A stretch of 63,526 bases of DNA, filler included, from Streblomastix strix (taxonomy: Eukaryota): assembly GCA_008636045.1 (NCBI GenBank). It is 4 parts of 4 records of this genome, joined end to end, with 100 filler letters (N's around TTAATTAATTAA, not from the genome) between each part and the next. Parts side by side here need not be neighbours in the genome. Positions count along the whole stretch, not along the records: positions 1 to 15,819 come from SNRW01000930.1; 3 more parts are not named here. One strand, 5' to 3'. The translations under genes were made by a program, and so were the position numbers. Below the pieces are notes generated by a model, which was given only the letters and a program-made list of their open reading frames with translations, did no database searches and was not told where the DNA came from. This document shows, piece after piece, positions 1 to 31,822 of the stretch; the stretch's first letter is position 1, and each line of letters opens with the position of its first letter.

Positions 1-1
1 A

Positions 2-442
2 TTTGTTGAAAATGATGATCCAACTAATAAAAGATAAATAGATCACAAAAATGGTATTAAGACTGATAATAGTATATAAAATTTATGCTAGATGAATAAT
101 AGTAGTAATTAGAGAAAAAATTCGAAACACAATGCTGATGTTATATATGAATATGATAATGAAATTCCTGATGATGCTATAACCATTAATGATTATGGAA
201 CACATAGATTTGAATTCTATTCCTATAGTTAAGATACAGATAAATTTTATTACTATAATGGTTTAAAATATAGAGTTTTACACATTAATGAAGTAAAACG
301 AAGTGGAATGTTATTTGATCGCGCTAATGATATTGATAATGATTTAACAAAAATATTCATAAATAAATTCAAAAGACTAAAAAAACATAATTAATTGAAT
401 CATCATTTTTGCTTCCTTACTATAAATTAAATGGCATTATGA
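2..442 (+). CDS. HNH endonuclease, C-terminal part (5' truncated, 3' end uncertain)
   Basis: With TAR=Q frame 2 reads FVENDDPTNKRQIDHKNGIKTDNSIQNL..., matching the phage-type DHxNGxKxDNxxxNL HNH motif; first in-frame TGA at 440-442. Confidence 0.75.
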
Positions 443-848
443 GAGTAATAACAACTTGATCGACAGAAAAATATACATTTTTATGCACTAGCTTATAATT
501 ATTTGTACAATTTTAGTAATACAGATAATACTATATTAGCAAAGGAGTCGATGAAGAAATTATTAGATATAGATTCAGATAAAAGAGTTTTTGAAGTTGT
601 GTATTATTATACTAGTTATTTGCTAACTGATGATTATAATAAATTATGGGATAAATATAAGAGTTGGGTTGAGGATGAAAATCCTGAATTCTATAAATTT
701 ATCATTGCATAAAAGGTTCATGATTAATAAATTTCTTAAGCGAGATTTGATAAAATCAATCAAAGACCTTATAGTGACTCAAGATCATAATCAATTAAAC
801 CATAAATTTAAGTATATTAACCTATTAAATTAATTAACCAATTTTGAA
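431..848 (+). pseudogene. Hypothetical element protein, disrupted
   Basis: TAAATG start at 431; MAL*EQQQLDRQKNIHFYALAYNYLYNF...LWDKYKSWVEDENPEFYKFIIAQK; TGA at codon 4; reading decays after ~850. Confidence 0.45.
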
Positions 849-1898
849 GATTCCAACTATTTAACCTTTGATACCTAAATCAAAAGTAAAAAAACAAAGC
901 AAATCAAAAACTTTTGTTAATGAACTTAATAAATTAAAGTAATAATTAATAGAAATAATTGGTGAATAGGAGTAATTCAATTTAGATAATGATATAGATT
1001 CAAACATAACAATAACTGCAATGCTTTAATAAGAAAATATTAATACGAAACAATCATTTTATAATACTATTCTGAATCATAAGTTCAATTAATCAGTTCA
1101 AAGTATTGGATTATAAAACATAAACTATTAAATTTGTAGATTAATTTCTTAGCTAATGGTATGACTAATATATCTTATAATTTAGTGAGAGATATCCATA
1201 GAAAATTTATGCTTTATAGTCTAAACCAAAGAAATTTAATAAGCTCTAGAATGATAACTTATTCCAAAAAATAACATAAAATCAATTCCCTTTCAAATCA
1301 AAGTATGATGTCATTCGAGTAGTTAATGAAAAAGACCAATGCCCTCACATTGATAAACACAGTGATTTGCCCACGTCAGAAACATCCAATATTATGACGA
1401 ATTGCTGACATATGAAAAATGAATAGATTATCTAGAACCGAAAATCAAAGAATAAATTGATATTAATAAAGAAATACGTATAAAATAATAAATTATAACA
1501 TTTAGGAATATCATTAGTAATGAAAAATAATTGATATGATTTACGATATGCATTTATGATAAAAAAAATTGGTATGATTTATGATTTGCGTTAATAAAAA
1601 AATAATTTATCTGATTTCTGAGACGCACAAATAAATAGGATTTAGGCAATGTTTCGGGCATTTGTCTTTCTCATTAACTACTCGCACAGAGCTAGCTTAT
1701 TTATCTAATTTTCCCACGATTAGTAATCTGTCCGATTAAGTTTTCATTAACGAAGTTGAAATAATGGCATCGACTAGCTGGTCGATGAGTGAAATACGTT
1801 ATTTGATGAAATTTATGGTGATAAAAGTTATTGATTGGACTGATGGTTATGTCGAATTAAGCGGGGCAATGAAAAAGATTAATGGTGCGGATGAATGA

Positions 1899-2064
1899 GA
1901 TGAATTATCTACCTGCACGAGGACTATTCTAAGACAATTCTTGAATTAGTGTTCTGACATTGAGATATATATTAATTTATCCATCTGCACGGGGTGCTCT
2001 ACCTGCACGGGGTAAGTTGATAAACTATTTTGATATCTGTCATTAAAAATTATTGCCATAAATT
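1899..2064 (+). repeat. ~166-bp repeat block copy 1 (three CTGCACG(G/A)GG cores)
   Basis: Aligns by eye along its length with 2132-2297, e.g. shared AAGACAATTCTTGAATTAGTGTTCTGAC and ACCTGCACGGGGTAAGTTGATAAACTATTTTGA. Confidence 0.92.
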
Positions 2065-2131
2065 TGAATCATGAAGAAATCGATTGAATTATCTTAAATG
2101 AAAAATAAGACAGATAAGACAAGACAAGACA

Positions 2132-2297
2132 GATGAATTATCAACCTGCACGGGGACTATCTTAAGACAATTCTTGAATTAGTGTTCTGACGTGGAGATA
2201 TACATTAATTTATCCACCTGCACGGGGTGCACGACCTGCACGGGGTAAGTTGATAAACTATTTTGAGATCTGCCATTGACAATTATTGCCATAAATT
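2132..2297 (+). repeat. ~166-bp repeat block copy 2 (direct)
   Basis: Direct copy of 1899-2064, ending ~50 bp before the primase-helicase ATG. Confidence 0.92.
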
Positions 2298-2348
2298 AAG
2301 TAAAAATTATTTTTCTCATGCTATTTCAATATTTTATCCGAAAGTAAA

Positions 2349-5126
2349 ATGGCAACAGAAGAATTTTCAAATGACAAATCAAACCAACAAACAAACGTGA
2401 AATGTGAAACACTTGAGAAAGGACCGAAATGTAAATATACACGCAAATCGAAAACAGATGAGAAAGCAAAAGCTATGATTGATCAAATGATTAATGAACA
2501 GACGAATGAACAGACGAATGAATTGACTATTGAACCCACTAACAGCAAAGATGCTGGCATAAATGCTATTAAGTAGATTATTGAAGAGAAATATGACCAA
2601 CACATAAGTGAATTATGTAATTAACATGGAGGAACTGATAAAGAAAAAGATGAAAGAAGCTATTTAATATATCGATTAGAAAAAAATAGAGAAGATAATA
2701 TATTTGAAGAAGTATTGCAACCGTTAGTGGAATTATATAGGTAAGAATAAGATTCAAAAACAATAATTGAACGCGTCAAAAATGCTGTGATTAACAAAGT
2801 AAACTATACAAAAATAGGTTAATATGATGGTAAAAAAAATTAATAAATAACAGGCAAATTAATTGATTCATCATTAATGGATGAAGATAATCTATGTGTA
2901 GTTGATATAGACATTCATAAGGATAAATCAATAAAAGAGATTGATTAACTAGGATAAAATATAATTGATTCACTTCCACAAAATGTAGGTTTAGTTAAGA
3001 CTGCTCATGGAGGATTACATATCTATTGCAATAGGAATTTCTATCTATTACCTTCAAACTGTAATGTAAAAGTAGCTGTAACAGATAGTTTTGATATTGA
3101 TGTATTTGCTAAAATGATTAAATATAGAATTGAAAATGGATAAGAGACAAAAGAGAGAGTATAGAATCGGGTAGTTACTCCTAATACTTCTATTCGAGAA
3201 ACTAAAAGTAATTAAAGAGTTACACTCAAATATGAAGCAGTTAATGATTGGGAAAATGCATCTCATTTAGCGAGCTTGAGAGAGATATTTGACAAATGGA
3301 ATATAGATATTGAGATGTCATATAAAGATTACGCATAATAGTAACATTATAGAATATATGGAGTGTAAATCAATGATGACGGTGCAATTGAATAAATAAA
3401 TGATGAACTTGCATAAGCATGTGTTGATGGATTGAAGAATCTTGAAATACATAACTATCTTTAGCCGATTAATATGAAAGGGTCTCTTCTAAGTATATTC
3501 TGTGGATTATATGGAATTACTAATGAATCGATTAGAACCGAAGGAATGAAGAATATACGCTAATTCAATAAGCAAACCGCAAACGCAGATAAAAACTATG
3601 GATAAGCTTCATCTAATGGTGAACACAAACGAAATCCATGGATCCTTACAAAAATCTTAAGATACCATAATAAAGACTATTATGAATAAAAAATTAAACC
3701 ATTATTGAAAAAGAATTATGAAGTGAAAAAATAATCGAAAATAGTTGATATGGTGAAATAAATTGAGAAGCATGAGATTGACCTAAAAGATGTGTTCACA
3801 TTAACAGATGTATCTAGTAAAGCACTAAATGGATAATGTTAAAATTAATTAGAATTAGTTGCAGAAGATTTGTTTAAAATAATAAAGGTTGTACCTTGCT
3901 AAAACGGATGGTGTTTTGTCATTAAAGAATATGATTGTTTTCATAATACTAATACAATTCATTATAAGAATAAGACTGCTATCTATGATTAATTACGTTC
4001 GATAAGATTATGGTAAGATGGGAAAAAGAATTTAACTGCAATTGATGCTTTAGAATAATATCATTCACTATTCGAGAAGGTAGGTATAAGATTCATTAGT
4101 TAAAACCCTAAAATTTTCAGTGTATTTTAAGGATATAAGTACTTACAATTAGAAGAAGTGAACTATACAAAAATGGAAGGATTCCTAGGATTAGTGAAAG
4201 AGATTATCTCTGCAAATGATGAATTGATTTAAGAATATTTACTAAATTGGTTTGCTTTTATTGTGTAGAATGCAAGTAAGAAAACTGAAACAGCTATTAT
4301 ACTTCAAAGAATATAAGGTATTGGAAAGAATGTATTCACTAACTTATTATGAGAACTGTTAGCAAGATATTCATCGAAGAACATAACTGATATAGATGAT
4401 TTTGTTGGAAAGTTTAATGCAACTATCGAAAACAAGATGTTGGCAATTGCTGATGAAAAGAATAATTTTGGAGAATCGAGAATGTCTAGTATGGATGCGT
4501 TGAAGTCAATAATTACTGAATATTCATTTGATATTAATGAAAAATATATTCCAAAGCATGAAGTTGAGAATGTAATGAATATGATACTTGTAACCAATAA
4601 TATCTTTCCAATAAAAATAGAGAATAATGATAGACGTTATGTTGTATGCAAATGCAATTAAGTTCATCGAGAGTATCTAACTTAATTCCCTAATCTTTGT
4701 AATAGCTTTGATGAAGATTTTTATAACAACTTATTCACATTCTTTATGACTAGGGATATTTCATAATTTAATCCAAGAAACATTTCAATGACATAAGCTA
4801 AGAAAGATATAATAAGAGCATCAAGGTCAAATGTTGATGACATTATAATTGATCATTTCAAGTAGTTCAAAGATGGTGTAATCATATCACAAGTCGAGCT
4901 ATGGAAACTTCAAGATATGATACTAAAAAATTATCAATTAACGATAAGTAATATATGTAGCCAAGTATGGAGATCAACTAATGGATAAAGAAAGAGATTC
5001 TATAAAATGAAAGAAGAAATGGTTATGATATATGAGAACATGCTAGATGAAGATGCTGATGAGAAAGAAGCTGAAGCATAAACAGCTGAACAAGAGAGGT
5101 AAGAAGAAGGTAATGAATACATATGA
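2349..5126 (+). pseudogene. AEP (Prim-Pol) primase fused to D5-like superfamily 3 helicase, ~925 codons, one internal TGA
   Basis: Single frame with TAR=Q. AEP motifs VVDID (2898-2912) and KTAHGGLHIY (~2997-3026); Walker A QRIQGIGKN (4305-4331, first G replaced by R); Walker B AIADE; sensor ILVTNN; DRRY arginine finger; in-frame TGA at 4350-4352. Confidence 0.88.
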
Positions 5127-5193
5127 ATAAAAGTGATCGTGCAGTTAAATGAATGAATTTATTTTTTGTGCTAGAATCATAGAGTAATGAATC

Positions 5194-5283
5194 AATTTGT
5201 CCATCTGCACGGGGTGCACGGCCTGCACGGGGTAACTTGATAAACTATTTTAGGTGCTGCCATAAGCCATTAATGCCGTAATT
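5194..5283 (+). repeat. Repeat block copy 3 (partial, direct)
   Basis: AATTTGTCCATCTGCACGGGGTGCACGGCCTGCACGGGGTAACTTGATAAACTATTTT matches the 3' half of copies 1 and 2. Confidence 0.88.
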
Positions 5284-5417
5284 GAAATATTAAGAGTTAG
5301 TACCATTCTGAAGTGAGTAATATTTTATAAGATGAACGATTTTGATTATTGCATGTAATCATCGGATCATATTTATTTTTCCTTATGATTCTGCTAATAT
5401 GGTGTTGAATTAAATAT

Positions 5418-5567
5418 AATTACGGCAATATGGCAAATTGCAGCATCTCAAATTATTTATCAACTTACCCCGTGCAGGCCGTGTACCCCGTGCAGATGGA
5501 CAAATTAGTGCATATCTCCATGTCAGAACACTAATTCAAGAATTATCTTAAAATTGTCCCCTTGCAG
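5418..5567 (-). repeat. Repeat block copy 4 (inverted, near full length)
   Basis: TATCAACTTACCCCGTGCAGGCCGTGTACCCCGTGCAGATGGACAAATT...GTCAGAACACTAATTCAAGAATT is the reverse complement of copies 1-3. Confidence 0.9.
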
Positions 5568-5987
5568 TGCATGTGTACTCGAAATATTTGATATAATATC
5601 TCATTAGCACATACTTGATTAACGCACATCATTAACGTAAAAATAAATCAGAGCTACCGACCGACCAACTATTATTTTTGCCAATTTTAGGGGGTCCAAC
5701 CCTGCACACCTGCACACATGAATAATTCACTTCATTTGCCCACTTCGCTAAAGCACATCATTAATGCAAAAAAAATCACATTCACTAGTTATATCGATCA
5801 ATTATATCACTAATTTAAAGTAAATCCTAAACGTTAGTTATGATAGTTTTCTAAAGATGCCGAATCAACAGTAGTTACAAATCGTTAGCATATGCACAGA
5901 ATTCCTATCGCTGAATTCTATATTTTTATTGTGCATGAGATCGTTACTCTGCGGCAATGCGTTCGGCTTCGCATGCTCACAATCAAA

Positions 5988-6839
5988 TCACACTCTAATC
6001 ATATTCAGTATTTTAATAATTAATTTACTAGTATTATCATCTAAATTTAATGTAGAATATTGTTGCTATGTTCGTTAATTATCATTGATAATCTCATGAA
6101 ATCTATTCAAATCTATCTCTTATATCTCTACTCTGTAGATACCTGCATCACCACTCTTGATCTATCGTTTCTTCATTGTTTCTTCAAAACTGATGCTCTT
6201 GAACATTTCATACATTAATTGTTTTATTTACATATTATATCGTTATGCAGTTGATGGAGAATCAAATGAGTCGGTTAATTAGTATATATTTTCTAGAAAC
6301 AATAATATTCCCTTTCTACCATTCCCATCTTCATGTGGATAAATGCGTTCGTATAATAGATAACACGCAAACATAACCATAACCATATTTGATTGATCAT
6401 ACTCATTAGCGAAGTCCACCAGTTCTTAAAGCTCAATTGGATCGATATTTTTATGTTGGATTCCAACGTTAGCTGCAGAGATTATTTTTGATTTATTCTT
6501 ATCACTAACATATACACTACAATGCCTAAATGTCTCTCTTTTGGTTAGTGCTTAGTATAGTTCATCGATCTATGGCACTTTCCTATTCTTAAGGTACTCT
6601 ATTGCTTCATTAATGTTATCCTTTGGTAATATATCATATTCAATACAGTTAGAATCCATAATATTTTTATACATTAATCTATCTGCTTCAATCGTATCTA
6701 TTACCTTACCTATTTAATCACATCCATCATCATTCAACAATATTGTAAATTCTTTAATTTTTATCGAATATTTTGATATCATTTTAATAATAAATGAAAT
6801 GCTATTCAATATAGTTATTAGAACATCATTAACGTTCAT
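5988..6839 (-). CDS. Fic/DOC-domain protein (~283 aa), divergent active site
   Basis: Open frame with TAR=Q; ...LYERIYPHEDGNGRKGILLFLE (motif 6341-6306) versus the Fic consensus HPFxDGNGRxxR. Confidence 0.78.
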
Positions 6840-6972
6840 CACTATTGAAAACATTGTCTTGTTTCTTATTGCTGCATCTGCATATAACACCATAACCAAA
6901 GAAAAAGAAAAGACTTCAATAAATTTACTATTTTATTCATGATTATCAACTAGTAATTTTTGGTAGGAATAA

Positions 6973-7566
6973 ATGTCTTTGAAACGATCAGTATCACCAT
7001 CTGAAAAAATTTATTAAAACGAACCAATGTCTCCTCGTTAATCAGTACCGATTATTCCTGCAATAGTTGAAGTAGATTCACCATTCGAAAAGGAATAAGA
7101 TAAAGTGTCTGTATAATCTGTTCGTTCAAGAAGAAGATCATCTATACTTGAAGAAATAATTGTTCCAGATCCATCAATATGTCGATGGCTACTTGATATA
7201 ATTAGTGAAGATGAACATATGACTAATGAACCTGCACATTTCATATTATCCGAACATTAATTAATAAGAGTAATTGCATATATATTTTATGTAGTGGAAA
7301 ACGAAGTTATCCTTAATACTGAAGATGAAGGATGTTGTGGAAAATTTATGCACGATGGCACTAGAATATTAAGAGAAATTACAATTAATAATGTTATTAT
7401 ACTTACTCTAGATATCGATAAAGTCAATCTTCTCAGAGATTCATATAAAATATGCTTATAAAAAGTGAGAAAAATAACTAGTATATTAGATCTTGGAGAT
7501 ATCTCATCAAATTTAATGTCTGCAACAAGTAAAGGATTAATGGCAGTTCTATCTCAGATTTATTGA
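6973..7566 (+). CDS. Hypothetical element protein (197 aa)
   Basis: TAAATG start, open to TGA 7564-7566 with TAR=Q (MSLKRSVSPSEK...EDEGCCGKF...VLSQIY); no domain recognised. Confidence 0.65.
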
Positions 7567-7593
7567 TTGATCTATATTATTTTTGGTAATTAA

Positions 7594-10110
7594 ATGGCTG
7601 ATACAGACTTACACTCTTTAGATGTACTCTTAATTTACAATGAAATTCTGTATGGAAACGTTCGTCATAATACTATTGGCTTGATTGAGTAAGTTACAAA
7701 TATTAACAATCAAATTAATAATATAAATAATGCTCCTGCACCTGATGTATATACTAAACCTGAAGCAAATGAAATATTTGATACAAAAGCTGATAAATCA
7801 GAGACATATTCTAAGACAGATACTGATACATTATTAGATGCAAAAGCAGATAAAACCGACACTTATACGAAAACTGAAACCGATACTCTACTCGATGCAA
7901 AAGCAGATAATACTGACAATTATATGAAAACTGAAACCGATACTCTACTCGATGATAATGCAAATAAAACTGAATTAATTGACTTATATTCCAAGACAGA
8001 AGACTACGCACTCTTATTATTGAAAGCAAATGTTGCTGATTTGACCAATTATGTAGATTTAACTTCTGTACAAACAATAACAGGATAAAAATAAATCAGT
8101 ATGATTAATATTTCAAGCAAATCGAAATTGAGTAAAAATGACGCTTCTATTCATCTTGCAGGTAGAGGAGATATGTTAGTAAGTTCATTAGTAACTTAAT
8201 CATAATTATAAGAAGTTGGAGATATTGCTACTGGAAAGCCAAAAATATGTATTCTCTACGTAAGATGAGTTGAATGACTGGATGGCTGTTCAAGATAATG
8301 TAGCAAAATTGGTAATTGGAGATAATTTATATATTGCTGATAAGGAAGTTACTGATTATTGGTGGGATGGAACTGATTTAAAAGTGTTAGAAACAGAATT
8401 ACCAGATATGAGTAATGTTATAACAACCCAACGAACAGCTACTGGAGGAGGTAATGCAATAACTGATATATCAATTGATGGTAATGTACTAACACCAGCG
8501 AAAAATAAAAATTTTGTAGATACAGATTATGATCAAAGTATTAGTGGTTAAAAGACATTTAATACAACAATACATTCAGTTGGAATCACAGATTCAATAT
8601 ATGATAATACATTTGTTATTTGTGCGTGTGGAGGAGTTAGATCAATTGCAGATATTTAAAATACCTCATATTCCAGATCAGAGGATGATGCACTTTTATT
8701 ATTGAAAGCTGATAAATCAACAACATATACCAAGACTGAAGATGATTCACTTTTACTATTGAAAGTTGATAAGACATAACTGATTGATTCATACTCTAAA
8801 GGTGAGACATATAATCTCTTAAGTAATAAAGCAGATACTGGAGTTTCCTATACGAAAGGTGAAGATGATGCACTCTTATTATTGAAAGCTGATAAATCAA
8901 CAACATATACCAAGACAGAACCTGATCAATTAATATCTAAGATTGATGTCGGAGATGTTGATTTGACTTATTATTACAATAAAACAAAAACAGATGAATT
9001 ATTAGGAGAGAAAGCTGACGCAATCGAACTATATAATTATATTACATTAGGTACTTTATAAACAATTAATGCAAATAAGACATTCAATAAGGCTTGTAGA
9101 TTCACAAGTACAATAGATTGAATGTCAACAATTACTGGATCATCATTTATCAAATCAGGAGCAGATAATGCAGTTGTATTACTTGGAGCAGGTGGTACTA
9201 AACCAATTACAGAATTTGGGGGAAGTGTTGATGATTCGAATTATGTGAAGAAAACAGGATAAGCAACATAAAATATCGCAGGAAATTTAATAAGATCAGA
9301 TAGTGAAGATTCTTTTGATTATTTATAACCTAGATAATATGCTACAAAATATAGTATCGATGGTGCTTACGTTAAGAAAACAGGAAAAGAAACATAATCA
9401 ATCGAAGGAAATTTAAAAAGAAGCGGCAGTGAAATATTATTTGAAAATCTTTACCCATTCCAATATATAATCAAATAGGATGCAAAGTACGGATTTGTAT
9501 AAAAAGAAGGATAACAGGTATAAGAAATCGAAGGAAAATTACGTAGAAAACAAGATGATAAAAAATCTGAAAATGGTGACTATTTAACAAAAGATGAGAT
9601 GGATAATAAATATGTAACACTTGGAGGAACTTAAACGATTACTGGTATAAAAACATTTATTATATCAGTAACTGCACCAACATTTGTAAAATATAGCGGA
9701 ACTAATTAACAAGTACTATTGGCAGATGGAACTGTTTAACAATTATCTGAATTTGGAGGAGTGCAAGTGGAAGACATTACAAATTTAATTGTCAATTTAT
9801 ATTCAATTATTACATTGAATTATTTAAAACTTACTCGAATAGGTACTTTTTATATTTTAATGATGGAAATTCAACCAAAAACTTAATTCAATATCTCAGC
9901 ATAATTTATTATTTGTAGTATTGGAAATATCGGTACTGGCATATCTCCTCCAACGCCTCCAAGTACTACATATCTTATTTAGTTAGCAACGAAGCGAAGG
10001 ACATTAATATATTCGCACTCATATAGAGAAATTCGAATAACTGCGGATTCAACAGAAGCTTGGGGTGTTAATGATGATGTTGGCTTAAAAATTTAGTTGG
10101 ATGCTTTGAT
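7594..10110 (+). pseudogene. Tail-fibre/virion-fibre-like repeat protein, disrupted
   Basis: Tandem KADKxxTYxKxExDxLL repeats (~7785-8030, ~8665-9020), QTITGxK/QSISGQKTF/QTITGIKTF fibre motifs, three VxKxG..Q.I.G.L repeats; frameshift ~8245, TGA 9119-9121, probable frameshift ~10090. Confidence 0.75.
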
Positions 10111-10170
10111 AATAAGCACATTCATATTACCTATCAAATAAGTTTAATACTTTTATTTTTGAACTATGAA

Positions 10171-11031
10171 ATGAATTATGAAATAGGCAGTGTATACATA
10201 GATGAAGCATTATTAGAAGCTGCAGGACTATTAGAATTTCCAGAATGTTATGCGTATATTATCGAGAGCGATCAAGAGCCAGTTCCACTAGCATAACGAA
10301 TACCAATCAGAGAATAAACCTTACAAAAATAAGTGAAAGATAATGATGACATTCTCTTTAATACAAACGAATTGTTCATTCCTCCATTTTCAAATGCTCC
10401 TACAAAATTAGACTTAAGTTCATAGCTAGAACGATCTAGTTTCCTAGCATCATGTGGATCAGATCCATAATTAATTGTGTACGGTGATCGTGTTACATTA
10501 ACCGCGTCATATGAAACTTCTGGATTATTTCCCAATGGTTATTTATTCAAAAGTTATCCAGAAGAAGCGAGACCAAAAGCAGGAGATAAAGTGATTGCAT
10601 TAGTTGGAACAGATACTACGAATAAAAATAGTATATTTTGTTATATCGATTAGTATGGACCATTTATCATCAGTACATCAAAGATTCCTTCAAAAACTGG
10701 TCTCTTTATAAACGTAACTAATTATAAAAAATATGAGTCATCTAATAAAATAAATTATGATGCAAATAATGATGGCATAGTAAATATAATGGATACTTGG
10801 CACGTCAATGGTAAAGGAACATTCGAAACATAATCTCATGTATATGATACTGTGAAAAAATAAACTGATTTAATTGCAACTGGATTGTTTGGAGATAATA
10901 AAGTAAATTATTTAAATAGTGATATAAAATTATAGGATGAATTAGCAATCTATTAAGCGGATAGAGCAGCATTCTTCATTAAAAATATAACTATAAATGC
11001 TTTAAATAAATCAAAAAACAAAAAACAATGA
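10171..11031 (+). CDS. Putative virion/receptor-binding protein with a dockerin/EF-hand-like loop (286 aa)
   Basis: Open with TAR=Q; LFKSYPEEARPK resembles the LP..xRP motif of fibre tip domains; DANNDGIVNIMD at 10759-10794. Confidence 0.55.
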
Positions 11032-12482
11032 ATGATTGTATCTAAAAAAATGTATTACTAAGCAGAATGTTTGAATAAATCTACAAAAAAATGCATTTAA
11101 TAAGAAAAAAATCAAAATTCTTGTTGTTAATCAAATAATACGAACATAAATCTAACTAATTCAGATAAAATTCTGAAACAAAGCAAATGTATGCAATGAG
11201 TGAATATATTAATTAGTCAATCTCTACAGTAAAAAACGACAAGTTGAACACATATTTAAATAGAAGTCGAATTAATTAGCCATATTTTTTGTTTACATGT
11301 ATTAGATACTTTTGAAATTACATTTGATATTTATTCATGATATAGAATCACATCTTAGGTAGCTTTTGGAGCAAATATCGTATATGATTTAACTATTCTT
11401 TTTTAATCGATCAAACTTTTTTAATATCTATAGTTTTGAATATATTGAAAAATTTAAGGGCAGCGTATATAATTTTATCAAGCAAAACATAAATCTAAAT
11501 TTAATATGCAAAATAATTAAAAATTCGAATTCCTATCAAATTATTTAACAATTTCTTTAACAAATCGTTTCTTTATTTTTTAACTGTAATTCTTTACTTA
11601 ATAAATATTGCTTGTTTGAGCAGATTATGAAATTAGTTTATGTAATACCAAATTTGTGAATCAATAATGTGAAACAAAACAAATGAATGATAAAGATTAA
11701 TGGAAGGAATTGAATTAAATATATGAGTATGATATATGAATATTATTAATGGATTTAATTAATAGAAGTAATCATGCAAATAATGAAGGTTTATTATAAA
11801 TTGAGACGGATTATACAATTAGAATAAATGAAGAATTATCCTCATCGTAATATTTAAAATGAAATAAACTAATTAAAACAAATTTTATACAAAAATTGAT
11901 GGAATAGAAATTAATATTTTTTAATCTCGGGCATTTTAAACTCTGCCGGTAGATACTGGTTAATAGTTTCGGGAAAATTATCCACTATTAATTATAGATT
12001 TAATTAATAAAATTATCCCTTCAAAAAAATAAAGATCTGAATTTTACAGCTATATTCTCTAAATACTTTAACACCAATATTTACAGATATTATCACGGTA
12101 AGGTATATTTTCAATGCTCTTAAATATTCAGCAGCCACATTTTAATTATCTTACATTATTAATATCTCCTTCGTCGTGAGTTTATAAAAAATCGTGCTAC
12201 TACACATAACATCGCTTACCATTTATGCATATGCTAATATTAATCAATAAAATTTTAATTGCTGTTGATTTTTCCACCTTCATTTATATCATTGACTTAA
12301 CCTGCGCATAATTCTACCGGCTTAAAATAATTTTTTAAAAATTATGTTTTTATTTGCTATCTTTCACTATTATCAATGTATTCCAACTATTTTTTATTTC
12401 AAAATATCACTTCTTTATTTTATTCAAATAAATTAGCAAAATCCTTATATTTTAACTTTATTTTTTTATATAAAACTTTAGA

Positions 12483-14747
12483 ATGATGAATAATAACGAA
12501 TTTAATATATAATCTGCTGGTTATTAAATTAATCCTGTTAGTTCTACTTTTCCTTCATCTTCTAATCCGTCTCTTTTTTCTAATTTTATTACTCCATAGC
12601 TCTTTGCAACAACCCCCGCTCAACTACAAAATCCACCACCTGTACTTTAAATTTCTTCGTAGGATATTCCTCAATACAGTTAGAAATATATAGTTGTTTA
12701 TGTGCCTGTTTTGCGCTTAGGGTAGGTAGCTCCATTTAATTCATCACCTCTTGTATAGACTCAATTTGCAAACTAAAACCTTTACTATCAAAATTAAGTA
12801 CCAAATTTTATTTAAAACACAAATAACTTTGGAGTTAATTAAGACTACTAAAATGGAATCAATGATTTAATGCATTTCATTGGAAATACAATATCTTCTC
12901 CATTTATACCTCAATAATAAGTATAATCATATTCTCCTCCTCCTTTATCAGCATCTGAACTCAATTACTATGATATTAATAAATATCCAAATAATACAAA
13001 TCCTTAATAGAAATACATTAGAAGACAATAAAATTAACTGTATATACCAACAAAATAGAAGGAAATACCAAGATCAATGAATTAACTGTTTGAACTATAG
13101 AGAGAAATTGAAATAATGAATATTATTGGAGACAAAATGAAGAAATTTGCTGAATTACATAAACTCATTATTGGAATGGATGAAAATGATATATAAGCTT
13201 CAATTAATCAGAACTTCTTCATTTGGCTGAAAGATCATTTCTTCTCTTCTTAATATATTATTCAGCTTGAAATAATAACAATGCTCCAAGATATCATCTA
13301 TAGAGGAGAATAAATATCACCAAGTAAGAAAAAGAGCATATTCTTCAGACCTTTGAATAGATCAAGGTTTTTGTGGGGTATTCATATTCTAATAAATAAA
13401 TAAGCTGAAATACAAGAAAAGAGCAAAGATTAATAATATGAAGATTCTGAATTTATGCAAAAATGTTTGGATGTATTGTTTGGTGTAATGAGAGAGAGAT
13501 ATATGGTAGAAGAATAGCTTCGTGAAATATGTGGAAAAGTACTTATTCATTGTCTGAACAAACTTATAACATATTTAATTGAAGCAAGTAAGACATTGAA
13601 GACTCAACCACACTTAGGAATAATGACAAGTAATAGATTTAGTGATGAAATGAGAAGAGGAATATAAACTCTTCATACACTCAGTTGTGCAACTTAGAAT
13701 AAAATTACACAGAACTTCTTAGTTGAAAAATTTAGAATTCATGAAGCAATTACGCCTCTACTACATATTAATTGTGATTATCTTGCTTGCGAACATCGTA
13801 TTTAATTGCCTTTCTCTTTAAAATTAGAGAAATTACAATTAGCTATTCTTGATGCTGTTTCATCACTTTGTGAGAAAGATGAAGTAATTTAGGCATATCT
13901 TGTATAGGAAGTTCGACTCATTCCTCATCTGAGTTAAATTCTTATAACTTTTGCCTCTTAATTGTGTCCCAACTTTAAATAATCTAAATTTGAAAACTTT
14001 CAATCATCTCCACAATCAATATAATCTCCCTTATAATAACCAGAAACAATTGAATAATTAAAATAAAGTGAAACATCAGATAAATCAAATACATCGCATA
14101 CAAATCCAATTTAACATTCAACATCGACATAATCTCCATAAAGCCAAAATTCTTCTTAGCCTTCAGGAACTGCTGCAATACGAATAACATAATAATTGTA
14201 TTATGCTGTACTTGAACTTCTTGAATATATTCTTGATGGTAATAGATTATCTGCTGAAGGGATTTGCTTTGAGCCAAGTCTTGTTTCAGCATTTGCAGCT
14301 CTTTCTCAAGTTCAGAGGAAGTAGTCAAATTAATTTATATTGGATGAGTAAGTTGCAGTTGAAATCAGAATTAGAAGTATTTGGTATTTGAGATAAGTCT
14401 AGATGAATGGAGGAGACAAAGTTTAGAGATCTTTAGTAAAGGATGGTATATATACAAAACGAGTTCTTACTGATGCTATTTCAAGCAGTGGAGGAAATAG
14501 TGAGGATTGTGTTGATGTTATCAAAGAATCATTATTTGGGTTGACTTAGCTAATTATGACACTTCGAGAAGGGAACAGCATTTGTTAAGGATAGACTACT
14601 CTCCTTGAACTCGTAACTGAACAGCTAGAAGAAGAAGGTGCAGTTCAGGAAGTTGATGCATAAGTGTTTTGTACTAAAGAATTAATTACTTCAGGTGTAC
14701 GTGCCACAGCAATACAGACGCAAACTAGACTAATATTTTATATTTGA
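12483..14747 (+). CDS. ARM/helical-repeat-like protein of a lineage-expanded family (754 aa, intronless, Q/P-rich N-terminus)
   Basis: Uninterrupted frame with TAR=Q; shares PLLHINC..C..RI..P and C-terminal EQLEEEG..EV motifs with 61805-63515. Confidence 0.75.
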
Positions 14748-15468
14748 TAACTAGAAGGAAATAATCTTAGAGTTTTTCTTTGCTTTCTATCTTTTTTGTG
14801 ATAAGGATAATAAATTTTTAGCTATCAGAATATTTAGTTATTGATTTTGATATTGTTGATATAAAATTGACTATATATTTCTAACAACATTGTGCAAATG
14901 TGAGGATCTTGTGAAATAGAAACATGAATTTATGTGATTAAAATAATCTTGATCTCAATCTAGAATCAGCACTTATGTATTTTTTATTTGGATATCCTAA
15001 TATGATGTGAAATATATTTATTTGTCTTTCTTTAGCATAAATATCTATTTTCTGATTCAGAATCGTTCATTCTATTCACGAGCTTCGCACCGTTCATCCA
15101 ATATATAGATTGCAATTTGATATATCTTTTTATCTACTAGAAACCAATTCTAATATAATTTATACTTATTGAATAATATTTAACCACCATGGTGCAATAA
15201 TATAACACCGAAGAATATTTTTATTTAAACGCATATTGAGCATCATCCAGTTCTATTCTTAACATGGAATTGCAATTATTTTTTGTGTTTCCAATTTTCT
15301 GATCGAATATAGATGTCATAATACCAACAATAAAATAACCTATGATTAAATATCTGAAAACACTCAAAATACTTCGTATCATTCTTTTGAATAATTTACC
15401 AAACCAAATTGTACATATTATTTTAACATAATATGTAAATTAATATTATTTAATAATTATGATTTAGA

Positions 15469-15819
15469 ATGGACACTCAAGATTCAAACTTGGGTTAGGG
15501 AGTAAAACGTTCGGTAGTAAGAGAGCGAGTAAGACAGCGCGGACACGATATGATTTTTCTTGAACATGCTGATGATACAGACAGAACCCCACTAGAACCT
15601 GATATTATACCAGTTCCGCGACAAAGAGGAATCCCTGTGAGTTCACGCGGATAAAAAAAGAATGAAAAGCGTTAAACAGAATCAACAAACTCAACTAATA
15701 TTTCTCCATAATTCTAGACATATCCTGCTTAATAACCTGTTTATACTCCGCCATTTTAGTAACCTTATCCATCTCCTTATCCTGCAGTTTATCCACCTCC
15801 TTATGGAGCTTTATATCCT
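15469..15819 (+). CDS. Hypothetical P/Y/Q-rich protein, N-terminus (truncated by contig end)
   Basis: MDTQDSNLGQGVKRSVVRERVRQRGH...QPYPSPYPAVYPPPYGALYP, open up to the gap. Confidence 0.55.
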
Positions 15820-15919
15820 NNNNNNNNNNNNNNNNNNNNNNNNNNNNNNNNNNNNNNNNNNNNTTAATTAATTAANNNNNNNNNNNNNNNNNNNNNNNNN
15901 NNNNNNNNNNNNNNNNNNN
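15820..15919. other. Artificial contig linker (N44-TTAATTAATTAA-N44)
   Basis: The same 100-nt spacer occurs three times. Confidence 0.97.
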
Positions 15920-16080
15920 CACCCATTTATTTAATCTAATCATCTTCTAGATTTTATTTATAAAAGTAGAGTGAATTGAACATCCAAATTGTTAATAAAT
16001 AACAAATAACTCATTTATTATATTTATTATGATTTTTTTTTCTAAAAAGTTTTTTTTAAATCAACAACATTAATGCAAAG

Positions 16081-16350
16081 GAAGATTAATTTGGATATGA
16101 TGATGATGAAGATGATGAAGAAGGAATAGATAAAGAAGATGATAAAATGAAGTTGAATGTATTGAGACGTTTAAAATAAGAGAATGAAGCTGAGAAAGAT
16201 ATTGATGAAGATGAATAAAAGAAGAATAGATTAGATTAAATGTAGAAGGATATTAATTCTGATGATGATTCAAATGCAAGTAGTGAAGAAGAACAAGAAG
16301 ATGATGGGAATAAAACTTCATCAAAATAAAGAATGAAAAAGGACAAATGA
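16081..16350 (+). CDS. Acidic C-terminal exon of a gene truncated by contig start
   Basis: EDQFGYDDDEDDEEGIDKEDDKMKLNVLRRLKQENEAEK...MKKDK then TGA 16348-16350. Confidence 0.5.
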
Positions 16351-16651
16351 AAATCATTTTGTAATTAATAAAAATAAATTCATTCAAAAAATATGTAAAT
16401 ATCAAAATTTGATATTTTGGTTTATATTTATTCTCCAAGTGCATATGTTGTGCAAGTGAATTGAATAGCGAAACAGAAAAAGAAATCAAAATGATTGTGA
16501 AAGTGAGAAATAATTTCTTATATGTGAAATCAAATGAATATATAATCTTCCTTGCGATGTTGAATGATACGGAAAATAATATTCATTCATTAGTATATCA
16601 AATTATTTATTCCAATTGAATTTATTTTTCATTTGTTCTGTTTATATTATT

Positions 16652-17484
16652 TCATATTCTATTCACCAAGATATGTTTAATGATAATGGAAAGCGGAATA
16701 CGTCCTTCTGTTTTGATTTTCTTTATTAAATAGATTCTTCTTAGCCAATGATCCTTATATAAAACTTTCATTGGATCTTTTTATGCTACAAGATCAGATG
16801 ATTTTGGACTATTCAATTGATCAGATGATTTTGGAATAGAAGATGAAACTTAGTAAGAAGTAATTTTTATTGGTGGAACTGTTGCAGTTTTTGAAAAGTC
16901 GGATTACTGGTTTCCATTTGAAGTTGGTGTTGAACTTGATGAATTCGAACATCTTGATTCTTCTGAAGTTAATTCAATGAATGAACCACTCACTTTTGAT
17001 GAATTTGAACTCTTTGAATTCAGCATTATTGAGTTTTGAGCACTTCTTGTAACTTATTGTTCAGCATTTGAAGTTAAAAAGTCCAAATCTATTTCATTAA
17101 AGAAATCTCCAATTTAAATGTTGTTTGAAGGGCTCGATCTCGTTTATTCAATGCAATCTCTATTAGAATGAGTAGAGTGATGGTTTCCATCATCTGCTCC
17201 AACAGCAGCAGAATCATTGCGATTTTGCTCGATTTCATGTTAATCTCTTTTTGGATCAGATGGATTTAGGGTATGAGCAACATATATAGTTGAAAAATGT
17301 AAATAATACTGAATATCAGGGCATACTAATTGTTCTACCTACGAGAATGTCTTGATTAAACAGGAGCATCCGTTCTTTCTCTCAAATTAAGTGGATTTCC
17401 GTTATTCCCTTGCGCTGGCCTTAGATCAACTTCATGTATCTCAGATGCTTGGCAAGGATTCATATTTTTTGTGCGTCTAGACAT
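16652..17484 (-). CDS. Hypothetical Ser-rich protein, probably one intron; boundaries uncertain
   Basis: Two open minus-strand segments (MSRRTKNMNPCQ... and VAHTLNPSDPKRDQ...HWLRRIYL) with TAR=Q; no domain recognised. Confidence 0.4.
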
Positions 17485-17868
17485 TGGGGATTATTATTGA
17501 ATTAATTAGGTTATCCAATTTTGGGTTTTAACCCTCGCAATCTCCCTGAGCCATCGCAGGCATAATTAACATTCAGATTTGGCAAACACATTTATATTAA
17601 TTTACTCTATTTATATCAACCATGCAAGTTGGAATAGCAATGTGTGGGCCGAGAAATTTTGTATTTTTCAATCTGCCCCAATATTCATCATTGATATCAG
17701 AATCACCAAAAATAATATAAATGTAATAATTTCAATTCATTTTTAGTATAAATTTGTTTATTTATAAAGTCTCCAATTTCAGTTTAAAAATAATCTGTAC
17801 ACTCATTTTTTGTAATTATTAACTCAAAATTTAATAATTTTATTATTTATTAGTTAGATACAGAAATT

Positions 17869-20800
17869 ATGAGTTAGTCATTTAACGAGAAAACTAACTT
17901 TACAGATACAACTGACTCCAATTCTCTTTGGACTGCTGGCGAGTTGTAGAGAGAAGCAGGTAAATATTTTGATGGCGTTCTGAGTAGTAATTAATAGGAG
18001 GAAATTATTAATTTACTTATTCCTTTTGTCACTTCAAAGAAGGCTAAAGAGGAGGGAAAAAACGAATAATCCTAAGATTCTGGATTAAACACTCAGGAAA
18101 AGGATATTGAAACATTGAAAGTTAATTAATTAATTTCTGCCCTTGCCAAACTTCATTTTGAATAGGAATCCAAGTTGAAAAAATAGAACCCTTTTGATAG
18201 ACAATCGTCTTCATTAACTAATATCCGAAAACTTCAACCAACCAATAACATGTCATTGATACCCCGCTCTCCATTGATTGCTCTGCCTTCTCCAGCCTCT
18301 TCATTAATATCAAATGCAGATTTATTCAATTTATCAGTTACCTCTAATCATTTGATGAATCAGGCACCAAGTCCATCTCATTTATAGCTTTAATCAACTC
18401 CAATATCATTATCTTCTTTCCCTCTTTTGACAACTCCTATTGTTTAGTAAACAAGTGCTGATATAAGAGGATCAAATATTGACAATAATATAATAAAGAC
18501 TAATAAAAATATTGGATATAACCCATGTCTATAAGTATAATAACCAACTCTATCTTCAACGCCCCATAAATTGACTGTAGGACCAAAAGAGAATGTATAT
18601 AATTCTGCATTAGCATCAAAAGTACTTGCAGAGAAAGCTCTTCCTCAGCTTGCACATCCATTAGATTCATCATCTGACTTAGCATTAATTAGATCACTGC
18701 ATCCATATCCAATATCTACTAAATGGAAAGGTACTCTAGTGATGCAGAGTACAGTTGGTAGTGTTGCTGATAGAAATGGGAAATTGATGGAAGATGAATG
18801 TCTAGCCTGTTCTATTAATGGAGGAACAGGGAAGAGCGGATCCATTCGAAGTGTAGCAACTGTATTTGATGGTCATTCATACAACAACAAAGCTGGTAGA
18901 GATGTAGCTTCATTTGCAAGAGATAGAATGTGGTCTACAATTATAAGGAAACACATGACTATGGTTGAATCTGGAGAAGCACAAGGAGCTGAAATCAATT
19001 CAGGAAGATTGGGTGCATATCATCCTTAGTTATAAGAGAATACTTCAAAGTAATACATTAAGTTTATATCTGATTATAATGATGTACTCAAAGATGATGA
19101 ATTAGTAGTAGAGAAAGAAGTAGGGATATCAATGCAACATGCATTTGAGGAGATTGCAGAAGAAATGAGGACAATTGGAGCAGGTGATGCAGATTCCGAC
19201 AGTGACTACTTCATTCATGCAGGATGTACAGCATCTGCAGCTGCTGTTGTTGCTGCCCCAGACAGTTACAATGAGATTGGATAACCAACTGCACATCCAA
19301 TTGCATCTCTTAGATTGGAATCTTTCTTCTCAAAGGAGAAAGAGAGGAAGATGATTACTGATGCTGAGAAGAAGGAGTTAAAAGATTCTATTGGGAAAGA
19401 CAAGAAATAAGTGAGTGATATGGAATAGGATGAAGAAGATGATGATATCAATGAATATATAGTTGCTGGTACATATGGATTGGTTACAGCTAATATTGGA
19501 GATAGTGAGATATATATGTTCTCCTCATTACCTCCTTCAAACCCATAATAATCTGGATCAATTAAGAATAAGAGAGAATAAATAAAAGAAGACTAAGAAG
19601 ATACTCCAAGTAGTACTTATTCCCCATTTAATCTGCCATTAGAGTTATCATATGCACATAAAGCCACTGATCCAAGGGAGTAGAAGAGATGCTAAGATAG
19701 TGGTGGGATTGTGCAATCTTTTGATATGGAGTAATTTGGACCAATGAATTCACCCATGTAATTAAAAGCGATGGGATAATTGAGTGAGATGATGAACTAA
19801 ACAAGAGTGAATGGATTGGCTGTAACAAGAGCATTTGGAGATTATGGATCTAAATAGACAATTAAAGTACCTTATATCAGGATGATTAAATTGAGACCCC
19901 TATTTGAGGATCCAAGGAGTGTTGTATTAAATAGAAATAGTATATAGAATGAGAAGTTGGATAATATCAATAGCAATGGACAAGAAGTGACAGAATCAAT
20001 CAATTAATAATAATAATAATAACAAACAGATACATCATCATCATCTAAATAAGGATAAGATAAGTAATTTAAAGGGAAGAGACAACCACTTCCACAGTGG
20101 GTAGTACTCGCTAGTGATGGATTCTGGGATGTCATTAGTCCAGAATTATGCTCAGAGTTAATACCACGTATAATTGATTAGTATGCTGTAGTATAAAAGA
20201 GGTATGATACATTAAGAGATATTATGTTACTAAGTTCAGCATGTTAGAATGAAAGTGCATCTCTTATATCAGAGGTTAAGGAAGATGAAACACGACCACT
20301 GAAGAAATCAAGTAGTTAATAAGGAATGGCAACACTTACATAACAGCAGATAAAATAATTCACTTCAATATATAACAATGGATCAGTAGATGACTTCTCA
20401 TGTTCTAAAGATGGTCATACTCCCAATAAATAGACTGAAGAATAGAACACATCTCCAATTGACAAGAAGAAATAAGAATAATCTGATCTTGCTTCAACAT
20501 CCAAGACTTAGAGTGATCATCCTACTCTAAGGGCTCGCTTAAAGAAGGCATAAACAGCTTTGAACTATTCTTCATCATAATCTTAGATTAATTTAGAATC
20601 AAATTCGCAAACATCTTCATTTGAATAATTAATTGGTTATAAACCAGTTCCAGTTCCATAACAATATTTCTATGTATCTGCACAAGAAGCAGCAGTTGCT
20701 CTATTTGATGCAAAAGCTGCCAGTATTACAGCCTAAGAAATGGCTCAATTACTCTTATAAGCATCACTTGATGTATATAAATAGAAAGGACATACAAAGA

Positions 20801-21738: not shown

Positions 21739-22470
21739 AATCAATAATACTCTTCTTTGAACTCATATTATATATTTTTTCTTATGTATATTCAAACTTT
21801 TCAGTTTTTATCTTAAATAATTTTAAATATTAATAGATATATAATATTAATAGGCATGCTATTTTTGAAACTTTTTTATTGAAATCAAGTTGAAAATTTG
21901 ATTCAAAGTATCCTATTGCGAATATTATATATAAATTTTTGATAATTTAATTATTAAAGTTCCAAGACTTATTAATTCGTAAAAACTATGTTATTAATCA
22001 CTGAAACATGAAATAATAACTATATTTTTTTTATACTTTGATTTATCTCCAGATTAAGCCCGGAATTTGACAATCAAAATTCCTGAAATAAATATTAAAT
22101 TGTATTTGAACAAGATTGAATTTATTTGCTTAGTAGATTAATTTGACATTAAAATTAGCATAAAATCTCCATATAATATATTTGATGATAAAGCAAACAT
22201 TTAATTGCTAAAAAGATAACTCAAACAATTTTCATGATTTTTCTTACATTATTTTGGAATAACTTACACTTTTCAATTCCAATTTCATGACATTTATTTA
22301 TTAAATAATTTAATCCTTTCATCATTATCAACTTTATTTACCTTATTTATATCATTATTCCATCATTATTTTTATTTTTATTATTTTTAAACTGTAATAT
22401 TTTCTCATTTTATTTGCTGAAACATATAATAATAGATATTCAAAATTATATAAATTATACGTTATTATCC

Positions 22471-31722: not shown

Positions 31723-31822
31723 NNNNNNNNNNNNNNNNNNNNNNNNNNNNNNNNNNNNNNNNNNNNTTAATTAATTAANNNNNNNNNNNNNNNNNNNNNN
31801 NNNNNNNNNNNNNNNNNNNNNN
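31723..31822. other. Artificial contig linker
   Basis: N-TTAATTAATTAA-N 100-nt spacer. Confidence 0.97.

What the first reader, a model, noticed from the sequence alone, without database searches (positions are those of the whole stretch)
1899..5567. Primase-helicase gene bracketed by iteron-like CTGCACGGGG blocks: two direct copies upstream, a palindromic pair downstream
Seen: a ~166-bp block with three GC-rich CTGCACGGGG cores in otherwise very AT-rich DNA occurs at 1899-2064 and 2132-2297 (direct), 5194-5283 (direct, partial) and 5418-5567 (inverted). Copies 3 and 4 form ~90-bp arms around a ~135-bp spacer; copies 2 and 4 enclose the gene as inverted repeats; related CCTGCACAC cores recur at ~5701-5717. 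Inference: replication origins or initiator-binding sites, or the ends of an invertible or independently mobile replication cassette.
Basis: partly seen in the sequence, partly recalled or inferred. Interest (0 to 1): 0.72.

Follow-up and report, generated by a model that had tools for sequence, protein, structure and literature searches.

The report
Candidate origin beside protist viral primase-helicase
In a many-copy virus-like element in the genome of a termite-gut protist, short GC-rich repeats face each other just behind a primase-helicase gene, a layout kept in distantly related copies and matching that of bacterial satellite origins, so they likely mark where the element's own protein starts copying its DNA (untested, and this copy of the gene is broken).

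Summary
The repeats are real: 11 CTGCACGGGG-type cores, all at 1913-5567 (0.07 expected by chance). The DNA is eukaryotic and reads TAA/TAG as Gln. Read so, the gene (2349-5126) is one 925-codon frame with a single TGA and an altered Walker A. It encodes an NrS-1-like primase/SF3 helicase with a predicted C-terminal winged helix, one of at least 60 Streblomastix strix paralogs. It lies in a many-copy virus-like element (HNH, Fic, tail-fibre-like genes) that ends near 11.25 kb; no capsid or recombinase gene was found there. The downstream facing pair is no assembly chimera: diverged contigs from three samples tile gene-c3-spacer-c4-flank, and a 47%-identical paralog's run-on gene model holds both arms 267 nt apart (263 here). 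The block is non-coding. Best reading (0.5): an iteron-type origin like that of SaPI satellites, bound by the element's own primase-helicase; the upstream copies would be extra binding sites. Inversion is unsupported: 3 of 3 informative paralog models point to the same right flank. The idea is already published as a hypothesis for polinton-like viruses; binding is untested.

The parts
1898..2064 (+). Block c1: three cores (1913, 1985, 2003), spaced 72 and 18 nt; begins at the stop of a small ORF of unknown status (1581-1898)
2131..2297 (+). Block c2: three cores (2146, 2218, 2236); ends 51 nt before the ATG; candidate extra (autoregulatory or titrating) binding array
   Evidence: role inferred. 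A diverged X2 contig runs 2223-2421, from c2 into the gene start
2349..5126 (+). Primase-helicase gene, table 6, 925 codons: primase-like motifs (VDID at 185-188, TAHGGLH at 218-224), DUF5906/NrS-1-like SF3 helicase, predicted C-terminal winged helix. Broken in this copy: in-frame TGA at 4350-4352 and Arg in place of the first Walker A Gly
   Evidence: folds were made on paralogs P0003 and P0119
5178..5283 (+). Block c3 (partial): two cores (5205, 5223); left arm of the facing pair, first core 79 nt after the stop codon
5284..5417 (.). Spacer between the arms (134 nt, 25% GC; 234 nt between the double cores); candidate melting region
   Evidence: function inferred
5418..5567 (-). Block c4: inverted; cores at 5468-5477, 5486-5495 and 5558-5567; right arm of the facing pair
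5684..5740 (.). Second short-repeat element ('E'): GGGGGTCC followed by two CCTGCACA units; much more widely matched by related contigs than the blocks
   Evidence: summed depth in X1 14,105-23,252 at 5670-5741 against 123-5,949 over 5166-5597
1316..1684 (.). Separate inverted repeat: 29-nt arms 1316-1344 and 1656-1684, 93% complementary; a homologous stretch follows the primase gene in the model of paralog P0036
2..442 (+). HNH endonuclease gene, cut by the contig start
5988..6776 (-). Fic-motif gene (HPHEDGNGR), convergent on the facing pair; start codon uncertain
   Evidence: (Pfam Fic E 0.005, below the curated cut-off)
7594..10162 (+). Tail-fibre-like repeat ORFs (KADK repeats, BppL_N), in pieces
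   Evidence: phrog_10305 tail fiber, E 5e-5
10171..11031 (+). 286-aa ORF of the element, no family found
11200..11300 (.). Approximate right border between the many-copy element and low-copy host DNA; exact end not defined
   Evidence: X1 summed depth 22,447 (10843-11259) falls to 29 (11260-11676); one X1 contig spans 10955-12083 with 0 differences

Best explanation
The CTGCACGGGG blocks are non-coding repeats of a many-copy virus-like element in an oxymonad genome, and the facing pair behind the gene is likely the element's replication origin, predicted to be bound by the element's own primase-helicase. Inferred mechanism, by analogy to SaPI Rep: hexamers would recognise the double cores on each side through the C-terminal winged helix, open the DNA between them, load as helicases facing outward and prime synthesis with the N-terminal primase. 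The two direct copies in front of the start codon would be extra binding arrays that repress the gene or titrate the protein. Shown: the repeats, their layout and their conservation in diverged copies; the reading frame; the family identity; the two lesions in this copy. Predicted: the winged helix. Inferred: binding, melting, priming and the role of c1/c2. This copy cannot make a working helicase, so the site could only be used in trans.
For: (1) Layout matches the SaPI ori as described in PMC9371898 (passages): repeats immediately downstream of the rep ORF, at least two on each side, pointing in opposite directions. (2) Protein: best PDB sequence match is the NrS-1 helicase region, E 6e-28. 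Fold matches for paralog P0003: NrS-1, ASFV PrimPol, SaPI5 PriRep 7OLA E 3e-7. The C-terminal domain of paralog P0119 models at pLDDT about 90-95 over residues 31-90, and the structure lists are filled with winged-helix folds, best Z 7.9. (3) Conservation: diverged contigs tile the pair. X1 record 1 covers 4950-5338 with 56 differences (gene end, c3, spacer); X1 record 6 covers 5270-5498; X4 records 28 and 29 cover 5338-5507 and 5356-5505; X2 records 13 and 14 run from the spacer into c4; X2 record 15 (5493-5613) and X4 record 30 (5533-5634) run from c4 into the right flank; X3 records 19-21 cover 5112-5385. (4) Paralog P0041 (47% identity) has a run-on gene model that reads through both arms. 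It was picked by its c4 match (tblastn E 3e-4). A block profile then found the forward arm too: score 38.3 against 13.7 +/- 5.2, 0 of 150 shuffles, 267 nt from the inverted arm against 263 here. (5) The double cores are invariant at 22 of 22 positions in the four copies against 26 of 40 around them (anchored on the cores, so biased). (6) Non-coding: substitutions fall 16/14/12 over codon positions; only 2 convincing protein matches among 1.84 billion representatives, both short S. strix models. (7) A single block does not fold (z -0.4), which suits a double-stranded binding site.
Against: No binding or replication data. The spacer is 25% GC against 29% for the element; the lowest 40-nt window is 20%, so an AT-rich melting centre is weak. 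The cores are 10-11 nt inside 166-nt blocks, not 5-6-nt iterons. The arms pair over about 90 nt, more than protein binding needs, which also fits a hairpin or recombination site. Winged-helix Z under 8 may mean only a common arrangement, and Foldseek gave no match at E 0.001 or better. Only 1 of 8 C-terminal run-ons and 0 of 30 N-terminal extensions scored for the block (such models skip most flanking DNA). One X2 contig leaves c1 at 2064 into 255+ unrelated letters, so the block may also lie in other contexts. c1 and c2 are unexplained by an origin alone. The P0041 evidence is read through a protein model, not DNA.
Confidence: 0.5

Rival explanations
1. The facing pair is a recombination or hairpin site: the joined ends of a linear genome, a resolvase/attP-type site or a cruciform. 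It may double as an origin, as Barth et al. propose for inverted repeats beside PLV primase-helicases.
For: About 90-nt arms form a stem at z -12. c3 and c4 share states at 4 of the listed variable sites against c1/c2, as from conversion between arms. One X4 contig joins 5304 to 5440 on opposite strands (depth 6, side 62). Published model: PMC11296320 (passages); terminal palindromes in elements without pPolB: bioRxiv 10.64898/2026.07.28.741278 (passages).
Against: The pair is internal and whole: contigs run from gene to spacer and from c4 into the right flank, and the host junction is about 5.7 kb away. No recombinase was found in 1-11250, though the contig starts inside the element. Joints between homologous blocks arise from mapping alone.
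Confidence: 0.18
2. The blocks are transcription signals (promoter, enhancer or 3' end signals) repeated between genes and bound by a host or helper-virus factor.
For: c2 ends 51 nt before the ATG. c1, c3 and c4 each lie downstream of a stop codon in the same orientation (small ORF, primase, Fic).
Against: No core occurs near the other genes of the element (0 further matches in 5568-11250). The fixed 263-267 nt facing geometry in a distant paralog is not needed for a promoter.
Confidence: 0.13
3. The blocks (or the E element) are the ends of a cassette that inverts, or moves independently of the structural genes.
For: c2 and c4 enclose the gene as 89% inverted repeats. Joints 2277-5393 (opposite strands; X1, X4; side 31-38) and 5270-2332 (goes back; X1; side 57). 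P0036 has the upstream 1316-1402 sequence behind its gene. An HNH gene is adjacent. Repeat-bracketed replicases are proposed to be mobile in bioRxiv 10.64898/2026.10.13.758929 (section 13) and PMC11296320 (section 9 part 1).
Against: P0023, P0042 and P0112 (70, 73 and 82% identity to the queries) all run on into 5751-5990, P0023 also into 6714-6794; none of the 8 run-ons matches the reversed left flank. So the gene keeps its neighbour and orientation in 3 of 3 informative copies. The joints are what homologous blocks give without any rearrangement. No recombinase or transposase found.
Confidence: 0.12
4. Neutral local duplications or a small dispersed repeat (MITE-like) with no role for the gene.
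For: This copy is decayed. A loose end at 2064 in X2. P0108 carries a c4-type block behind an N-terminus with only a marginal likeness to the family's C-terminus (E 0.09).
Against: Both arms and their distance persist in a paralog at 47% protein identity; the cores vary less than their flanks; the block has no terminal inverted repeats of its own.
Confidence: 0.06
5. Assembly or amplification chimera.
For: No listed contig spans both arms or the c1-c2 tandem; no long reads were available.
Against: The copies differ by 8-16%. Each junction of the downstream pair is in diverged contigs of 2-3 samples and in an independent paralog locus. Model P0107 suggests two blocks in tandem on another contig.
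Confidence: 0.01

Closest known systems
SaPI replication module (SaPI5 PriRep, PDB 7OLA, with its iteron ori; PMC9371898) and the SCCmec Cch2 origin (PMC7581432)
   Same: Fused primase-SF3 helicase with a C-terminal winged helix (predicted here); repeats directly downstream of the gene, two or more on each side, facing opposite ways.
   Different: Eukaryotic endogenous element using table 6; 10-11-nt cores in 166-nt blocks with long pairing arms; centre barely AT-enriched; two more blocks upstream; no binding data; not a SaPI.
PLV 'replicative end module' and repeat-bracketed replicases (PMC11296320; bioRxiv 10.64898/2026.10.13.758929)
   Same: Primase-helicase beside inverted repeats proposed as origin; repeats on both sides of the gene; a neighbouring endonuclease gene.
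   Different: No tyrosine recombinase found here; the pair is internal, not a TIR; sub-repeats with fixed spacing are traced to a distant paralog.
Metamonada Maverick/PLV endogenous elements of Streblomastix strix and Trichomonas vaginalis (PMC10120064)
   Same: Same host and genetic code; many diverged copies; the closest named non-oxymonad homolog is T. vaginalis TVAGG3_0043110 (34%, 198-member cluster).
   Different: No capsid, ATPase or integrase gene identified in the 11 kb present; the passages read do not mention these repeats.
Phage NrS-1 primase-polymerase-helicase (PDB 6K9C, 6K9E)
   Same: Best sequence and fold match for the helicase region.
   Different: 18% identity; the N-terminal domain matches pRN1 ORF904 only at E 0.94.
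Iteron plasmids such as P1 (recalled; only a search listing was seen)
   Same: Rep gene with repeat arrays on both sides, one serving as origin and one for control.
   Different: Their RepA is not a primase-helicase and their origin iterons are direct, not facing (recalled).

Membership tests
SaPI-type iteron origin (works-like test) | Repeats immediately downstream of the rep ORF | tested here: met
   Stop at 5126, first core at 5205; criterion from PMC9371898
SaPI-type iteron origin (works-like test) | At least two repeats on each side, in opposite directions | tested here: met
   Two + cores, three - cores; same pair in P0041
SaPI-type iteron origin (works-like test) | AT-rich centre | tested here: inconclusive
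   25% GC against 29% for the element; lowest 40-nt window 20%
SaPI-type iteron origin (works-like test) | Six to twelve iterons of 5-6 nt | tested here: not met
   Five 10-11-nt cores downstream, eleven in all
SaPI-type iteron origin (works-like test) | SF3 helicase with a C-terminal winged-helix domain | tested here: met
   helicase; winged helix, predicted on paralog P0119, Z up to 7.9
SaPI-type iteron origin (works-like test) | Specific binding and melting by the cognate Rep | not testable with these tools
   Needs EMSA or footprinting
Metamonada Maverick/PLV endogenous element | Many diverged copies integrated in a protist genome, using the host's code | tested here: met
   60 of 105 and 32 of 35 hits named S. 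strix; 18,042 related contig records in X1 and a host junction; Gln is the commonest residue opposite TAR, 14% against 2% elsewhere, in 33 more distant homologs
Metamonada Maverick/PLV endogenous element | Replicase of pPolB or primase-helicase type | tested here: met
Metamonada Maverick/PLV endogenous element | Double jelly-roll major capsid, penton, A32 ATPase | tested here: inconclusive
   None found by Pfam, PHROGs or PDB sequence search; the contig starts inside the element; these capsids are highly divergent; no alignment to a published S. strix capsid was run
Metamonada Maverick/PLV endogenous element | Integrase (tyrosine recombinase or rve) | tested here: inconclusive
   Not found in six frames of 1-11250 (this scan also missed the weak Fic match)
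Metamonada Maverick/PLV endogenous element | Terminal inverted repeats and target duplication | not testable with these tools
   The left end lies outside the contig
Invertible (flip-flop) cassette | Both orientations among copies | tested here: inconclusive
   3 of 3 informative run-ons in one orientation; opposite-strand joints ambiguous; sample too small
Terminal hairpin or terminal palindrome | Located at the end of the element | tested here: not met
   Element sequence continues on both sides in diverged copies
Protein-coding repeat | Codon-position bias and a protein family | tested here: not met

The most novel reading that the evidence does not exclude
The S. strix nucleus holds dozens of primase-helicase subfamilies, each with its own iteron core co-evolving with its winged helix, like plasmid incompatibility groups. 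The gene with its origin and upstream control arrays is a self-contained replicon that copies itself and swaps between capsid modules, and decayed copies are replicated in trans by intact relatives.
Probability: 0.15. Interest if true: 0.75.

Novelty: new variant of a known kind. Interest (0 to 1): 0.45.

Why it matters
How polinton-like elements without a protein-primed polymerase start replication is open; the papers read offer inverted repeats beside the primase-helicase as a hypothesis only. No held paper holds 'iteron' together with both 'virophage' and 'polinton' (none of the 12 listed uses 'iteron'). This locus gives a defined 10-nt core, a fixed geometry seen at 47% protein identity and a small, well-predicted DNA-binding domain, so one gel shift tests the idea. 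Limits: the copy is broken, the concept is already in print, and a bacterial precedent exists.

Tried and rejected
No whole genome is held, so no genome-wide map of the block. Pattern scans: viral contigs 0; GTDB genomes 0; metagenome contigs 11 loci, all 11 unrelated 49-70% GC tandem repeats sharing at most a 29-nt match. Alignment search of viral contigs: 13 pattern matches, 0 confirmed. No RNA holder listed. Rfam: 3 matches, all below gathering score, rejected. Block as coding repeat: rejected (the search was weak, it missed P0108). P0109 and P0110 judged chance matches. An inverted copy of the E element upstream in this window: not found, scores 24-26 against a null maximum of 29. 'GVQPC' at the end of P0041 as a match to 5691-5705: dropped, it may equally be a further core. 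Summed contig depth was used only for 'many related copies' and for the border, not as copy number. X1 may be the sample behind the window and X4 is the same sample, so independent support comes from X2 and X3. P0002 (EZS28_005908) is this locus itself, not a second copy: its contig has the length of the window's first contig (15,819; N gap at 15,820) and it differs only by skipping the 15 codons around the TGA. The 286-aa ORF stays unassigned; it was not folded. A published S. strix capsid sequence seen in a supplement was not aligned to the window.
Full report
OBSERVATION. c1 (1898-2064) and c2 (2131-2297) are 92% alike; c4 (5450-5567) is 89% complementary to c2; the c3 and c4 arms are 84% complementary over 93 nt. 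The core occurs 11 times with at most one mismatch, all between 1913 and 5567, against 0.07 expected. A profile of the block finds only these four copies in the window. The pair folds as one long stem (z -12.2); a single block does not fold (z -0.4).

WHAT THE DNA IS. Under table 11 the gene falls apart. Under table 6 it is one frame from 2349 to 5126 with a single TGA. In 33 more distant homologs Gln is the commonest residue opposite TAA/TAG (14% against 2% elsewhere; 100% and 97% at two conserved sites). Of 105 homologs, 60 are named Streblomastix strix proteins (one, P0002, is this locus); next come unnamed sequences at 31-37%, a Trichomonas vaginalis protein (34%) and a Monocercomonoides 'poxvirus D5' protein. 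A search for shorter proteins added 35, of which 32 are named S. strix. The runs holding the stretch are mostly labelled termite gut metagenome. Neighbours are an HNH endonuclease, a Fic-motif gene and tail-fibre-like repeat ORFs. Thousands of diverged contigs lie on 1-11.25 kb (18,042 records laid from X1 on 1-12,500), and the summed depth drops from 22,447 to 29 at about 11,260, with one contig crossing the border without a difference. So the region is one copy of a many-copy element next to host DNA. The window is a scaffold; this contig ends at 15,819. Bellas et al. report endogenous viral elements in S. strix that use the same code (PMC10120064; passages; two supplement rows). No capsid, ATPase or integrase gene was found in the part present, so 'polinton-like' is likely but not shown.

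THE PROTEIN. The helicase region matches DUF5906 (E 8e-18) and NrS-1 (E 6e-28). A model of paralog P0003 (mean pLDDT 78.5) matches NrS-1, ASFV PrimPol and SaPI5 PriRep and phage Prim-Pol proteins. A model of the C-terminal domain (paralog P0119, 67 sequences) returns winged-helix folds throughout both lists, at modest scores (Foldseek E 0.02 at best; Z 7.9 at best). This copy is broken: the TGA lies just behind Walker A, and Walker A has Arg where all 31 of the 58 paralogs matched by the pattern have Gly.

IS THE LAYOUT CONSERVED? No other genome was available and the collections hold no relative. Two indirect routes worked. First, contigs of public runs laid on 4950-6000 (32 of 1,332 laid records listed): a copy about 85% alike runs from the gene through c3 into the spacer (X1), others run from the spacer into c4 (X1, X2, X4) and from c4 into the right flank (X2, X4); X3 covers 5112-5385. 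No listed piece spans both arms. Second, S. strix gene models that overrun their stop codon record flanking DNA. Of 90 paralog models examined (55 without this locus, 35), 8 have C-terminal run-ons of 30 residues or more. P0041 (47% identity) contains a c4-like stretch (E 3e-4) and, predicted from that, a c3-like stretch: score 38.3 against 13.7 +/- 5.2, 0 of 150 shuffles, 267 nt apart against 263 here, each with the 18-nt core spacing. Its residues imply a slightly different core (inference from amino acids). P0023, P0042 and P0112 read into 5751-5990; P0036 reads into 1316-1402; P0095 into tail-fibre genes; P0032 and P0039 match nothing outside the gene. Only P0041 of the 8, and 0 of 30 N-terminal extensions, score for the block. 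Two short models, P0107 and P0108, carry the block on two other contigs. For the upstream tandem the support is thinner: c1 and c2 differ by 8%, one X2 contig joins c2 to the gene start, and P0107 seems to read from one block into a second.

NOT CODING. Substitutions among c1, c2 and c4 fall evenly on codon positions in every frame, and no protein family exists. No Rfam match reaches its threshold.

HOW IT LIKELY WORKS. In SaPIs, Rep binds through a C-terminal winged helix to iterons immediately downstream of its gene, at least two on each side of an AT-rich centre and pointing in opposite directions (PMC9371898, passages; similar for SCCmec Cch2, PMC7581432, passages). Here the same protein architecture is followed after 79 nt by two cores, a 234-nt gap and two inverted cores plus one. 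I infer that c3-spacer-c4 is the origin, bound and opened by the element's primase-helicase, and that c1/c2 in front of the start codon are further binding arrays for control, as in iteron plasmids (recalled; only a search listing seen). Against this: the centre is hardly AT-enriched, the cores are longer than SaPI iterons, the arms pair over about 90 nt, and nothing has been measured. Probability 0.5.

RIVALS. Recombination or hairpin site (0.18): long arms and signs of conversion between them, but the pair is internal and no recombinase was seen. Transcription signals (0.13): positions fit in part, but no core lies near the other genes. Invertible or mobile cassette (0.12): c2 and c4 would allow inversion and joints suggest it (2277-5393, 5270-2332, 5304-5440), but such joints arise whenever homologous blocks differ between copies, and 3 of 3 informative paralogs keep the same flank and orientation. 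Neutral or dispersed repeat (0.06). Chimera (0.01).

WHAT IS KNOWN. Inverted repeats beside PLV primase-helicases as origin and recombination substrate, and repeat-flanked mobile helicases, are proposed in PMC11296320 (passages and section 9 part 1). Repeats bracketing replicases, with possible autonomy and nearby homing endonucleases, are in bioRxiv 10.64898/2026.10.13.758929 (passages and section 13). Terminal palindromes in elements without pPolB are in bioRxiv 10.64898/2026.07.28.741278 (passages). Metamonad elements remain unplaced (bioRxiv 10.64898/2026.06.19.733378, passages). Nine paper searches listed no description of this repeat; subscription papers, the bioRxiv supplements and the annotated element files of PMC10120064 were not seen and may bear on this. 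Earlier AI notes of this scan report like layouts in other genomes; one of them pointed me to the SaPI comparison; they are leads, not support.

VERDICT. A real, conserved, non-coding repeat set of an endogenous virus-like element; works most likely like a SaPI-type iteron origin but is not a member of that family. New variant of a known kind; interest 0.45.

Noticed in passing
window 5684-5740: A second short-repeat element (GGGGGTCC plus CCTGCACA x2). Models P0036, P0107 and P0021 seem to carry related elements with a different 9-nt unit, some in reverse orientation upstream of the gene or of the 1316 region (read from amino acids only). It could be a more general terminal or binding motif shared by subfamilies.
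   Followed up: partly
window 5649-5788: About 140 nt are skipped in several related contigs (X1, X4), between direct repeats 5613-5646 and 5742-5775; this segment contains the E element, which is thus optional in some copies.
   Followed up: no
window 5778-5993: Non-coding-looking stretch behind the Fic stop with the highest summed depth of the 4950-6000 region (35,000-152,000 in X1), kept downstream of the primase gene in three paralog models.
   Followed up: no
window 1316-1684: 29-nt inverted repeat (93%) enclosing three 38-nt direct repeats (1523-1635); possible small non-autonomous element or control region.
   Followed up: partly
window 2349-5126: The public gene model EZS28_005908 (P0002) removes the TGA and the end of Walker A as a 45-nt 'intron', hiding a pseudogene; many S. 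strix paralog models look similarly patched.
   Followed up: yes
window 7594-10162: Phage-tail-fibre-like KADK repeat ORFs; model P0095 joins a distant primase-helicase (24% identity) to such fibre sequence, so a second replicase subfamily sits by the same structural genes.
   Followed up: partly
window 10171-11031: 286-aa ORF present in many copies, no family or PDB match; candidate structural gene.
   Followed up: partly
window 15820-15919, 23020-23029, 31723-31822, 47625-47724: Runs of N: the window is a scaffold of several contigs; only 1-15819 was analysed in depth.
   Followed up: yes
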